DNA of 15,325 nt. Origin: Candidatus Hodarchaeota archaeon. GTDB taxonomy: Archaea > Asgardarchaeota > Heimdallarchaeia > Hodarchaeales > Hodarchaeaceae. The stretch's first letter is position 1. The number at the start of each line of letters is the position of its first letter. The notes under the pieces are model-generated. The model was given only the letters and a program-made list of their open reading frames with translations. It did not search any database and was not told where the DNA came from. Below are positions 6,636-6,825 of the stretch, piece by piece. The stretch spans positions 1 to 15,325 of the forward strand of contig JAUUVJ010000032.1 in assembly GCA_030589605.1 (NCBI GenBank), in the 5' to 3' direction. The position numbers were made by a program, and so were the translations under genes.

Positions 6636-6825
6636 GGTTGTGTTGTAGAAATCCTTTCTGGGGATTCTGTTTCCGGGTTCGGAACGAGACCGGGTGTAAC
6701 TCAGGCCCTTTGGCCGGGTAAAACCCAGCTTTCTGATTTTCCCGTAGGCGCGAGCACAACAGTACAGATCAGAACGGAACCTAACTTAACTTTCGGCAGA
6801 ATCTCGCAAGATTCCAACGCAACAA
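6636..6825 (+). ncRNA. Structured, GC-enriched non-coding RNA of unknown class (about 190 nt, possibly extending to the T6 at 6879-6884)
   Basis: The region is clearly more GC-rich than its flanks. Hand-folded elements:
- closing stem 6637-6645 GUUGUGUUG / 6815-6823 CAACGCAAC (9 bp, one G-U)
- hairpin AAUCC(6650-54)/GGAUU(6662-66)
- hairpin UUCCG(6671-75)-GGUU-CGGAA(6680-84)
- longer stem CGGG(6691-94)/CCCG(6741-44) continuing in UCAG(6701-04)/CUGA(6733-36)
- two tip hairpins, GGCC-CUUU-GGCC and GGGU-AAA-ACCC
- hairpin GAAUCU(6799-6804)-CGCA-AGAUUC(6809-14), which would stack on the closing stem.

The G-U pairs would become A-C mismatches on the other strand, which favours the plus strand. 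The minus strand is not excluded. Confidence 0.55.

What the first reader, a model, noticed from the sequence alone, without database searches (positions are those of the whole stretch)
6636..6825. Orphan GC-rich structured RNA that does not fit the classes I could test by eye
**Seen in the sequence.** A stretch of about 190 nt has clearly higher GC than its flanks. It folds into a closed multi-helix structure: a 9-bp terminal stem, at least five hairpins and one long stem with a forked tip. A largely unpaired segment of about 50 nt (6745-6796) contains a tandem TAACT-TAACT and two CGGAAC copies. Four segments can also pair alternatively, either as two local hairpins or as one 8-bp long-range helix (6662-6669 with 6797-6804): AGAAAUCC, GGAUUCUG, CAGAAUCU and AGAUUCC. 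The 66-aa ORF that the track places here has no start context and an odd composition.

I compared the region by eye with several consensus elements:
- RNase P CR-I/CR-V
- the SRP helix-8 GNAR...AGCA motif
- C/D boxes
- the TPP riboswitch core (on the minus strand there is CUGAGU...ACCC...GAACC, but no UGAUC..GCG.AGGGA half)

None fits convincingly.

**Inference.** It is either a divergent member of a known housekeeping RNA family or a new RNA. Its size and closed architecture argue against a simple antisense sRNA.
Basis: partly seen in the sequence, partly recalled or inferred. Interest (0 to 1): 0.65.

Follow-up and report, generated by a model that had tools for sequence, protein, structure and literature searches.

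The report
Circularly permuted 5S rRNA gene
The "orphan" GC-rich RNA is the 5S ribosomal RNA gene of an Asgard (Hodarchaeales-type) archaeon, encoded on the minus strand with its two halves in swapped order and flanked by a splicing-type motif that should rejoin them into a 120-nt circle, which would explain why standard tools miss 5S rRNA in these genomes.

Summary
Window 6636-6825 has 50% GC against 20-26% in the flanks, and it is a conserved structured RNA. It is not a new RNA class. It is a 5S rRNA gene on the minus strand, circularly permuted.

- **Order:** the 3' half (helix II 3' strand, helices V/IV, loop E, helix I 3' strand) comes first. A 3-nt loop caps helix I. The 5' half (helix I 5' strand, helix II, helix III/loop C) follows.
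- **Rfam:** only two sub-threshold 5S hits, in swapped order.
- **Relatives:** about 25 homologous loci in Hodarchaeales/Heimdallarchaeia share the arrangement, and 15 base pairs show compensatory changes.
- **Processing motif:** leader and trailer pair (9 bp, covarying) next to a bulge-helix-bulge motif. The standard cleavage rule excises exactly 120 nt (6790..6671) and creates the canonical junction CCCGGAA|GUUAAG.
- **Homology test:** a covariance model built from the in-silico rejoined sequences finds genuine bacterial 5S genes end to end (40-61 bits).
- **Intron:** one relative also carries a 30-nt BHB intron in the same gene.

Shown here: the permuted 5S identity. Inferred: cleavage by the splicing endonuclease, ligation, and a circular mature form. 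I found no report of a permuted archaeal 5S gene. The closest precedent is the permuted SRP RNA of Thermoproteus.

The parts
6861..6877 (-). Putative archaeal promoter (TATA-like TATATAAAGACTTATGA). The transcription start is probably about 6856-6845.
   Evidence: An A/T-rich element of the form (T)TTAAAGRCTCTTGAA sits at the same distance upstream in relatives whose surrounding leader sequence has diverged. Inferred, not mapped.
6829..6850 (-). Leader 5' hairpin (AUUAGUG-UCUAAUAG-CACUAAU)
   Evidence: A hairpin lies at the same place in relatives with a different sequence, e.g. CUGGUUUG...CAAACAG. Role unknown.
6815..6823 (-). Outer processing-stem helix, leader strand (GUUGCGUUG)
   Evidence: Pairs with 6637-6645 in the MFE folds. 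An outer leader/trailer helix of 4-9 bp forms in every relative with a different sequence.
6797..6805 (-). Inner leader/trailer helix h, leader strand (GAGAUUCUG)
   Evidence: Pairs with 6661-6669. Across 16 sequences 91% of cells are paired, and 5 of 9 pairs have changes on both sides.
6793..6796 (-). Central 4-bp helix H of the bulge-helix-bulge motif, leader strand (CCGA here; CCGG in 8 of 17 relatives)
   Evidence: Pairs with CCGG at 6673-6676. One compensatory change is seen (L016: CUGG/CCAG). The fourth position is A-C in 9 of 17 sequences.
6790..6792 (-). Leader bulge A-A|G. The predicted 5' cleavage lies between 6791 and 6790.
   Evidence: The bulge lies 3' of H, as in canonical BHB geometry. 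The cut 2 nt after H gives the 5' end GUUAAG (sequence; alignment). Inferred.
6671..6790 (-). The 120-nt permuted 5S rRNA. In order along the minus strand: loop B 3' side and helix II 3' strand (6790-6776); helix V (6774-6769 with 6736-6731); loop E, helix IV and loop D (6768-6737); helix I closed by a UUU loop (6729-6723, 6722-6720, 6719-6713); helix II 5' strand (6708-6701); helix III and loop C (6693-6673).
   Evidence: Two Rfam 5S fragments in swapped order. 96.2% of cells are paired and 15 pairs are compensatory. RNAalifold recovers helices I-V unaided. The rejoined sequence folds into the 5S Y-shape. A model built from the rejoined sequences finds true 5S genes.
6673..6676 (-). CCGG. It is the 3' strand of helix III in the mature fold and the trailer-side strand of BHB helix H in the precursor.
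   Evidence: The two conformers are within 0-2.6 kcal/mol of each other.
6670..6672 (-). Trailer bulge A-A|A. The predicted 3' cleavage lies between 6671 and 6670.
   Evidence: AAA is at least 90% conserved in relatives, one column under 100%. The cut leaves ...CCCGGAA as the 3' end. Inferred.
6661..6669 (-). Inner leader/trailer helix h, trailer strand (CAGAAUCCC)
   Evidence: see the leader strand.
6637..6645 (-). Outer processing-stem helix, trailer strand (CAACACAAC)
6629..6633 (-). Oligo-T (UUUUU), probable archaeal transcription terminator
   Evidence: A T-run follows the trailer stem in all relatives. Inferred.
6633..6833 (+). 66-aa ORF antisense to the RNA. Not a gene.
   Evidence: No Pfam hit. 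The frame is not conserved. Only 6 near-identical database hits.

Best explanation
This is the 5S rRNA gene of a Heimdallarchaeia (Hodarchaeales-type) Asgard archaeon. It lies on the minus strand and is circularly permuted at the DNA level.

**Layout of the primary transcript (roughly 6850 to 6629)**
- a leader;
- the 3' half of 5S (from loop B through helices II', V, IV and loop E to the 3' strand of helix I);
- a 3-nt loop that joins the natural 3' and 5' ends;
- the 5' half (helix I 5' strand, helix II, helix III/loop C);
- a trailer.

**Proposed maturation**
- Leader and trailer pair into a long processing stem.
- The top of that stem is a bulge-helix-bulge motif: helix h (9 bp), a central 4-bp helix made of leader CCGR and trailer CCGG, and the bulges AA|G and AA|A.
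- The archaeal tRNA-splicing endonuclease cuts 2 nt after the central helix on each strand.
- RtcB ligase joins the ends of the excised piece. This yields a 120-nt covalently closed RNA whose new junction, CCCGGAA-GUUAAG, recreates the normal helix III/loop B sequence.
- That circle, or a form reopened in the helix I loop, is the functional 5S rRNA. Formally the 5S is the 'intron' of a non-coding host transcript.
- The architecture looks like a former BHB intron in loop B whose two halves became trailer and leader when the gene was permuted.

**Status of each step**
- Shown: 5S identity, permuted order, conserved leader/trailer pairing, and exact in-silico restoration of a 5S.
- Inferred: the enzymes, the ligation and the final topology.
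For: **5S identity and permuted order**
- The only two Rfam hits in 6500-6950 are both 5S_rRNA, both on the minus strand, and cover complementary parts of the model in swapped order (model 27-51 at 6695-6671; model 1-16 plus 64-120 at 6804-6720)..
- About 25 homologous loci from independent assemblies, including three chromosome-level MAGs, have the same order.
- Conservation (80-93%) stops at the leader/trailer helix.

**Structure**
- For the named structure (5S helices I-V in permuted order plus helix h), 96.2% of cells are paired, against 25-54% when partners are slid.
- 15 pairs have changes on both sides; 0 of 500 shuffles reach that.
- RNAalifold finds helices I-V unaided.

**Processing motif**
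- The BHB rule has no free parameter. It predicts an excised RNA of 119-121 nt in all 20 loci examined, once the L025 intron is removed.
- The predicted junction is identical to the contiguous sequence in real 5S genes, e.g. Nonomuraea ...CCGAACCCGGAAGUUAAG....
- The BHB conformer is isoenergetic with the helix III conformer, within 0-2.6 kcal/mol.
- Relative L025 carries a 30-nt insertion in loop C that is itself a clean BHB intron. The same rule restores CAUUCCGAA|CCCGG exactly.

**Reciprocal homology test**
- blastn with the rejoined sequence hits bacterial 5S genes across the junction. Those loci are Rfam 5S at 86-100 bits.
- Covariance model R1, built only from rejoined Hodarchaeal sequences, matches four genuine 5S genes end to end (40.5-60.8 bits, E 1e-10 to 6e-17). 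It can match the genomic loci only as two adjacent halves.

**Literature**
- Asgard archaea have the (alpha-beta)2 endonuclease with the L1 loop that accepts relaxed BHBs (PMC5829648).
- The same mechanism is experimentally shown for the permuted SRP RNA of Thermoproteus (PMC4731332).
- 5S genes 'could not be predicted' in closed Heimdallarchaeum genomes (PMC8813620).
- The Ca. Hodarchaeum mangrovi type MAG lists only a 23S gene.
Against: - There are no RNA data. Cleavage, ligation and circularity are all inferred.
- The central BHB helix is imperfect (A-C at its fourth pair) in 9 of 17 sequences, including the window. Only one compensatory event supports it.
- The helix on the 5S side of the motif is only 3 invariant bp (GUU/AAC), so it carries no covariation signal. 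If it forms, the leader bulge is 2 nt rather than 3.
- Forming the BHB needs the trailer CCGG to leave helix III.
- CCGG is a palindrome, so the leader could pair elsewhere.
- I could not scan whole Hodarchaeales genomes, so a second, canonical 5S gene is not formally excluded.
- The BHB cleavage-position rule rests on my knowledge of tRNA intron geometry (37/38 intron, anticodon-intron pair). The papers read here confirm the motif (two 3-nt bulges, 4-bp helix) but do not state the cut position.
Confidence: 0.72

Rival explanations
1. Permuted 5S rRNA that is never religated. The leader/trailer stem only guides nucleases, as bacterial rRNA processing stems do. The mature molecule is a linear, permuted 5S with helix I closed by a loop and its ends at a nick in loop B, as in brown-algal mitochondrial 5S.
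For: Permuted 5S rRNAs that stay permuted exist in stramenopile mitochondria (PMC4267664). Here the BHB central helix is imperfect in about half the sequences and has a single compensatory event. The covariation in helix h is equally compatible with a plain processing stem.
Against: This model does not explain three things: why the leader keeps CCGRAAG, a copy of the helix III/loop B sequence, while the rest of the leader diverges; why the trailer AAA is at least 90% conserved; and why the BHB rule gives exactly 120 nt and the exact canonical junction in all loci. The same lineage uses a clean BHB intron inside this gene (L025). Archaea ligate the products of BHB cleavage.
Confidence: 0.18
2. 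The same BHB circularisation occurs, but the circle is only an intermediate. It is reopened in the helix I loop (invariant UU) to give a conventional linear 5S, as for permuted tRNAs of Cyanidioschyzon and archaeal circular pre-16S/23S rRNAs.
For: The two U residues on the 3' side of the helix I loop are invariant in all sequences while the helix below covaries. Canonical 5S genes often start with unpaired U(U) before helix I, as in the alignments. Circular pre-rRNAs are usually relinearised (PMC12918454).
Against: The cap is only 3-4 nt, so there is no spacer to remove. No known nuclease site is evident. The circular SRP RNA of Thermoproteus and circular 23S rRNA in ribosomes show that circles can be the mature form.
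Confidence: 0.25
3. A 5S-derived paralogue or relic (pseudogene, or an RNA with another role), while the working 5S rRNA is a canonical gene elsewhere in the genome.
For: Whole genomes could not be scanned here, so a second gene is not excluded.
Against: All 5S helices are maintained by compensatory changes across family-level divergence, and loop C and loop E are nearly invariant. The gene has its own promoter-like and terminator-like signals. 5S could not be predicted in closed genomes of the sister family Heimdallarchaeaceae, and no 5S is listed for the Hodarchaeum type MAG.
Confidence: 0.05
4. A new, non-5S structured RNA, or the 66-aa protein-coding ORF on the plus strand.
For: There is no Rfam hit at gathering score. 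Metagenome annotation pipelines called the ORF.
Against: A model built from the rejoined sequences finds real 5S genes. The ORF frame is not conserved. It has no family and only 6 near-identical hits. The substitution pattern is RNA-type covariation.
Confidence: 0.01

Closest known systems
Permuted, circularised SRP RNA of Thermoproteus tenax/uzoniensis (Plagens et al. 2015, PMC4731332)
   Same: A universal housekeeping RNA that standard models could not find. The gene is permuted. Leader and trailer fold into a BHB at the new termini. Endonuclease cleavage plus ligation restores the functional element. The Thermoproteus product is a circle.
   Different: The RNA is different (5S rRNA, a ribosome component) and so is the lineage (Asgard, not Thermoproteales). 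Here nothing is experimentally shown. The break is in loop B of 5S, and helix I is capped by a 3-nt loop.
Circularly permuted tRNA genes (Cyanidioschyzon merolae; Thermofilum pendens)
   Same: The 3' half is encoded before the 5' half. There is a BHB at the leader/trailer junction and a circular intermediate. The likely origin is an intron-containing gene.
   Different: In tRNAs the circle is reopened by RNase P and tRNase Z at the mature ends. (Own knowledge, and as cited in PMC4267664.)
Permuted mitochondrial 5S rRNA of brown algae and other stramenopiles (Valach et al. 2014, PMC4267664; Rfam mtPerm-5S)
   Same: A 5S rRNA whose helix I is replaced by or closed as a hairpin, with the ends moved elsewhere. 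It escaped standard 5S models.
   Different: In the algal case the ends lie at the alpha/gamma junction, the product stays permuted, and there is no BHB or ligation. Here the break is in loop B (beta domain), a BHB predicts religation, and the sequence is otherwise a well-conserved archaeal-type 5S.
Canonical 5S rRNA (Rfam RF00001)
   Same: All five helices, loop A three-way junction, loop C and loop E sequences, and a 120-nt length once rejoined.
   Different: The order of the halves in the gene differs. The genomic sequence scores 19.6 and 15.4 bits against a 38-bit threshold.
BHB-dependent circular pre-16S/23S rRNAs, circular 23S in ribosomes, and permuted 23S of Pyrococcus/Thermococcus (PMC12918454, PMC7758197, bioRxiv 10.64898/2026.03.23.713588)
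   Same: An rRNA is excised at a BHB in a leader/trailer processing stem and circularised. In some cases the circle or a permuted form is the mature rRNA.
   Different: In those cases the gene is collinear and the permutation arises at the RNA level. 5S rRNA is stated not to follow this route in the species studied. Here the gene itself is permuted, and circularisation is needed to restore a normal 5S.

Membership tests
5S rRNA (RF00001) | Three-domain Y-shape: helix I, helix II-III arm and helix IV-V arm around the loop A junction | tested here: met
   All five helices are present with 91-100% of cells paired. Compensatory changes occur in helices I, II, III, IV and V. RNAalifold recovers them unaided. 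The MFE fold of the rejoined sequence is the Y-shape.
5S rRNA (RF00001) | Conserved loop C/helix III and loop E sequence motifs | tested here: met
   ACCCGGUCUCGUUCCGAACCCGGAA aligns to model positions 27-51, and GUACUG...GGGAA to the loop E region. The alignments of R1 to four genuine 5S genes show near-identity in these motifs.
5S rRNA (RF00001) | Genomic sequence reaches the Rfam gathering score (38 bits) as one contiguous match | tested here: not met
   The fragments score 19.6 and 15.4 bits. There is no hit at gathering score in the window or in 18 relatives. The failure is explained by the swapped order. Because of it I file this as a permuted variant, not a standard member.
5S rRNA (RF00001) | Reciprocal homology to genuine 5S genes once collinear order is restored | tested here: met
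   Model R1, built from rejoined sequences, hits annotated or Rfam-confirmed 5S genes of E. coli, Ruegeria, Priestia and Nonomuraea end to end at 40.5-60.8 bits. blastn hits run across the junction.
5S rRNA (RF00001) | It is the 5S component of the large ribosomal subunit, and the only or main 5S gene of the genome | not testable with these tools
BHB-processed permuted non-coding RNA genes (permuted tRNA, Thermoproteus SRP RNA) | The 3' part of the RNA is encoded upstream of the 5' part, with the natural ends joined | tested here: met
   (two half-hits, 3' half first, in every locus). Helix I is capped by a 3-4 nt loop and the stem covaries.
BHB-processed permuted non-coding RNA genes (permuted tRNA, Thermoproteus SRP RNA) | Leader and trailer base-pair | tested here: met
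   The inner helix has 9 pairs, 5 with compensatory changes. An outer helix is present in all relatives.
BHB-processed permuted non-coding RNA genes (permuted tRNA, Thermoproteus SRP RNA) | Bulge-helix-bulge at the junction: a 4-bp helix flanked by 3-nt bulges on opposite strands, each 3' of the central helix | tested here: inconclusive
   The geometry and bulges are present in all sequences. The central helix is perfect (CCGG/CCGG or CUGG/CCAG) in 8 of 17 and has one A-C in 9 of 17. There is one compensatory event. The helix on the 5S side is 3 invariant bp. A relaxed motif of this kind is acceptable to the Asgard-type endonuclease according to PMC5829648.
BHB-processed permuted non-coding RNA genes (permuted tRNA, Thermoproteus SRP RNA) | Cleavage and ligation at the BHB restore the functional sequence | tested here: met
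   In silico only: a 119-121 nt product in 20 of 20 loci (the L025 product is 149 nt before its 30-nt intron is removed), and the junction CCCGGAA|GUUAAG is identical to genuine 5S genes.
BHB-processed permuted non-coding RNA genes (permuted tRNA, Thermoproteus SRP RNA) | Circular junction detectable in RNA; cleavage by the cognate endonuclease | not testable with these tools
   No transcriptome data or enzyme assay is available here.
Stramenopile mitochondrial permuted 5S (mtPerm-5S) | Ends at the alpha/gamma domain junction; the product remains permuted; organellar origin | tested here: not met
   The break point is in loop B (beta domain). The context is archaeal chromosomal. No Rfam hit to that model was reported.

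The most novel reading that the evidence does not exclude
In Hodarchaeales, a lineage proposed as among the closest archaeal relatives of eukaryotes, the ribosome's 5S rRNA is made only from a permuted gene and functions as a covalently closed 120-nt circle. It is formally the excised and circularised 'intron' of a non-coding host transcript. This would be the first circular 5S rRNA and the first permuted 5S gene in a cellular (non-organellar) genome. The same or a related rearrangement may explain the 'missing' 5S genes of other Heimdallarchaeia.
Probability: 0.4. Interest if true: 0.85.

Novelty: new variant of a known kind. Interest (0 to 1): 0.8.

Why it matters
5S rRNA is universal and is regarded as trivially detectable in bacterial, archaeal and nuclear genomes. 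Even so, the authors of the closed Heimdallarchaeum genomes reported that no 5S gene could be predicted.

- **Annotation:** a permuted gene gives a concrete explanation for Hodarchaeales, and it gives a search model for fixing annotation and MIMAG-type completeness calls for this much-studied clade.
- **Biology:** it extends BHB-dependent 'gene in pieces' biology, known so far for tRNAs and one SRP RNA, to a ribosomal RNA. It predicts a circular 5S rRNA in a working ribosome. One relative adds a BHB intron inside a 5S gene.
- **Testability:** the prediction can be checked directly, by looking for junction reads in existing metatranscriptomes or enrichment cultures, by endonuclease assays, or by cryo-EM.

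Tried and rejected
- **Other Rfam families:** RNase P, SRP, C/D box, riboswitches and the rest of the 4227 families gave nothing on either strand, even at E up to 10.
- **tRNA/tmRNA:** only tRNA-Val at 3139-3215.
- **Plus-strand protein (66 aa):** rejected.
present in the window but not conserved in relatives, so I treat them as incidental.
- **A second BHB between the outer and inner leader/trailer helices:** none found by eye in the alignments.
- **My first reading of BHB chirality:** I initially placed each bulge 5' of the central helix and concluded there was no BHB. Re-deriving the geometry from the 37/38 tRNA intron and the anticodon-intron pair puts each bulge 3' of the central helix. 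The motif then fits, and the L025 intron independently obeys the same rule.
- **Internal control from an intron-containing tRNA:** none of the 25 loci scanned has one.
- **Using spurious ORF translations to reach more distant lineages:** only 6 close hits.
- **Eme et al. 2023 supplements for 5S counts:** nothing found.
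Full report
**1. The observation**

Window 6636-6825 is 50% GC. The intergenic flanks are 20.5% and 26.4%, and the window mean is 33.5%.

Both strands fold into a closed multi-helix structure with the 9-bp terminal stem. The folding energy is only about 2 SD better than shuffles, so a single-sequence fold does not settle anything.

The 66-aa ORF (6633-6833, plus strand) has no Pfam family.

**2. First clue to identity**

- At gathering thresholds, Rfam finds only tRNA-Val (3140-3213) in the whole window.
- A permissive scan of 6500-6950 returns exactly two hits. Both are 5S_rRNA and both are on the minus strand.
  - 6695..6671 aligns perfectly to model positions 27-51 (helix III/loop C: ACCCGGUCUCGUUCCGAACCCGGAA; 19.6 bits).
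  - 6804..6720 aligns to positions 1-16 plus 64-120 (loop E and helices IV/V, GUACUG...GGGAA; 15.4 bits).
- Read along the minus strand, the 3' part of 5S comes first and the 5' part second.
- Between them, the 3' and 5' strands of helix I are joined by a 3-nt loop (GCUGGGU-UUU-ACCCGGC, 6729-6713).

This is the signature of a circularly permuted gene.

**3. Organism and relatives**

- The neighbouring genes are archaeal: an aCPSF-like beta-CASP nuclease, an MptE-like kinase, HerA-like and MutS-like ATPases.
- The adjacent MBL-fold gene (5558-6469, minus strand) has 60-83% identical homologues. Their sources name them Candidatus Hodarchaeales, Hodarchaeota or Heimdallarchaeota.
- The window itself is a metagenome contig seen in several samples.
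- A synteny search in species-representative genomes gave 21 loci.
- blastn finds the RNA upstream of the MBL gene in 17 of them. That set includes three chromosome-level MAGs. Identity is 80-93%, and the conserved block ends at window 6808 and 6660.
- In two relatives (L024, L025) the RNA gene is inverted relative to the MBL gene.
- A permutation-specific DNA pattern found 7 more loci in metagenomes.

**4. Structure by comparison**

I used an alignment of 19 loci (A3) and named the five canonical 5S helices in permuted order, plus a 9-bp helix between leader (6805-6797) and trailer (6669-6661).

- 96.2% of cells form standard pairs, against 25-54% when the 3' partners are slid by 1-3 columns.
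- 15 pairs carry changes on both sides. None of 500 shuffles reaches that.
- Compensatory changes occur in:
  - helix I (GGGU/ACCC, GAAGG/CUUC, GAGUA/UGCUC);
  - helix II;
  - helix III (L016: CUGG/CCAG);
  - helix IV;
  - helix V;
  - five of the nine leader/trailer pairs (e.g. GAGAUAUUG/CAAUAUCCC, GAAUCUCUG/CAGAGAUUC).
- RNAalifold, given no structure, recovers helices I-V.
- Many invariant G-U pairs would be A-C on the plus strand, which fixes the strand.
- The antisense ORF is broken or frame-shifted in 6 of 15 relatives. It has only six near-identical hits in 5.8 billion proteins.

**5. The junction**

In every sequence the leader ends ...CUG-CCGR-AAG-UUAAG and the trailer begins ...CCGG-AAA-CAG....

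A BHB is two 3-nt bulges separated by a 4-bp helix. In the canonical geometry each bulge lies 3' of the central helix on its strand, and the cut falls between bulge nucleotides 2 and 3. That cut position is my own knowledge, derived from the 37/38 tRNA intron and the anticodon-intron pair.

The window reads as follows:

| Element | Leader | Trailer |
|---|---|---|
| Helix h | 6805-6797 | 6669-6661 |
| Central helix | CCGA 6796-6793 | CCGG 6676-6673 |
| Bulge and cut | A6792 A6791 \| G6790 | A6672 A6671 \| A6670 |

- The excised RNA is 6790..6671, exactly 120 nt.
- It is 119-121 nt in all 20 loci examined, after the L025 intron is removed.
- Joining its ends gives ...CCGAACCCGGAA|GUUAAGUUAGG..., the normal contiguous 5S sequence.

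Weak points:

- The fourth pair of the central helix is A-C in 9 of 17 sequences.
- Only one compensatory event (L016) supports the central helix.
- The helix on the 5S side is 3 invariant bp.
- The trailer CCGG must leave helix III to form the BHB. The two conformers are within 0-2.6 kcal/mol of each other.

Asgard archaea carry the (alpha-beta)2 endonuclease with the L1 loop, which is associated with relaxed BHB recognition (PMC5829648).

**6. Independent support from an intron**

L025 has a 30-nt insertion in loop C:

...CAU-UCCG-AA|A-GAUAUGAAGGAAUUUCUUCAUUC-CGGG-AA|C-CCGG...

- It has a 4-bp central helix (UCCG/CGGG).
- It has two 3-nt bulges.
- It has an 8-bp intron hairpin.
- The same cut rule restores CAUUCCGAA|CCCGG exactly as in every other homologue.

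So this lineage uses BHB processing within this very gene, and the rule I applied is validated on a second site.

**7. Reciprocal homology test**

- The in-silico rejoined window sequence folds into the 5S Y-shape.
- By blastn it hits bacterial megaplasmid and chromosome loci across the restored junction (query positions 7-57).
- Those loci, and E. coli rrfB, are Rfam 5S at 86-100 bits.
- Covariance model R1 was built only from 16 rejoined Hodarchaeal sequences with the canonical structure.
- R1 matches all four genuine 5S genes end to end at their annotated coordinates (40.5-60.8 bits, E 1e-10 to 6e-17).
- In the window and in all 26 permuted loci searched (27 places in all), R1 can align only as two adjacent halves, 3' half first.
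- Standard annotation misses them all: Rfam at gathering score reports no 5S in 18 loci.

**8. Transcription unit**

- A TATA-like element (6877-6861) with a conserved counterpart in relatives lies upstream.
- A T-run (6633-6629) follows the trailer.
- Leader and trailer also form an outer helix (6823-6815 with 6645-6637). An equivalent helix of different sequence exists in every relative.

The precursor therefore carries a long processing stem, as archaeal rRNA precursors do.

**9. Mechanism, and what is inferred**

- Shown: a conserved, covarying, permuted 5S gene with paired flanks.
- Shown: exact in-silico restoration of a 120-nt 5S.
- Inferred: endonuclease cleavage, RtcB ligation, and the fate of the circle.

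I think the circle is most likely the mature form, for these reasons:

- The helix I cap is only 3-4 nt.
- There is no spacer to remove.
- There are precedents in the circular SRP RNA and circular 23S in ribosomes.

The invariant UU in the cap leaves room for reopening. An unligated, nicked 5S is the main rival.

The layout fits an origin from a 5S gene with a BHB intron in loop B. On that view, the intron's 5' and 3' halves are today's trailer and leader.

**10. Novelty**

- Full-text searches found no permuted archaeal 5S gene.
- The known permuted 5S rRNAs are mitochondrial and are not religated.
- Wu et al. 2022 state that 5S genes 'could not be predicted' in closed Heimdallarchaeum genomes.
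- The Ca. Hodarchaeum mangrovi type MAG lists only a 23S gene, whereas Kariarchaeum has a 5S.
- I could not scan whole genomes, so 'sole 5S gene' and the distribution outside Hodarchaeales remain open.

**Verdict**

The finding is real and resolved. It is a new variant of a known kind: a BHB-type permuted non-coding RNA gene, here for 5S rRNA.

Noticed in passing
L025:2557-2739 (minus strand of the locus; contig JBHLRO010000030.1): A 30-nt insertion in loop C/helix III of the permuted 5S gene is a clean bulge-helix-bulge intron (UCCG-AA|A ... CGGG-AA|C). Its removal restores the consensus exactly. It appears to be a 5S rRNA gene that is both permuted and intron-containing. Its sister contig L024 ends before this position.
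   Followed up: partly
window 6829-6850 (minus strand); L026, L027, L035, L040, L016 leaders and trailers: The leader carries a 5' hairpin whose stem differs in sequence between relatives. In one subclade its loop (AAUCUC) is complementary to a distal trailer segment (GAGAU). This is a possible extra leader-trailer contact or pseudoknot of unknown role.
   Followed up: no
window 6720-6722 (helix I cap): The two U residues on the 3' side of the 3-4 nt loop closing helix I are invariant in all relatives, while the stem beneath covaries. This could be a recognition or reopening site, or a relic of the unpaired 5' U(U) of canonical 5S.
   Followed up: no
L024 and L025 versus all other loci: The permuted 5S gene is inverted relative to the neighbouring MBL-fold gene in these two relatives, although it stays adjacent to it.
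   Followed up: no
window 3139-3215 (+): tRNA-Val(CAC), intron-less. It is found in 13 of the 25 related loci scanned.
   Followed up: partly
window 680-2071 (-): A 463-aa beta-CASP/MBL nuclease matches only positions 173-614 of the aCPSF1 model, so it lacks the N-terminal KH domains (an aCPSF2-like form). It also scores against the Cas14 type VII model below cut-off.
   Followed up: no
window 5558-6469 (-): A 303-aa MBL-fold protein with a DRMBL (SNM1/Artemis-like) C-terminal domain lies immediately downstream of the 5S gene on the same strand. Nearly all its detected homologues are from Hodarchaeales/Heimdallarchaeia-labelled genomes. It is a nuclease-family gene next to an RNA that needs processing, but no link was tested.
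   Followed up: no
window 7000-7830 (+) and 7802-8317 (-): The MptE-like pterin diphosphokinase and a PTPS/QueD-like gene converge, and their ORFs overlap by about 29 nt at the 3' ends.
   Followed up: no
window 9726-12386 (+) and 12425-14995 (-): An 886-aa HerA/DUF87 ATPase has a C-terminal extension of about 450 aa with no family hit. Next to it is an 856-aa multi-pass membrane protein with no Pfam hit on record.
   Followed up: no
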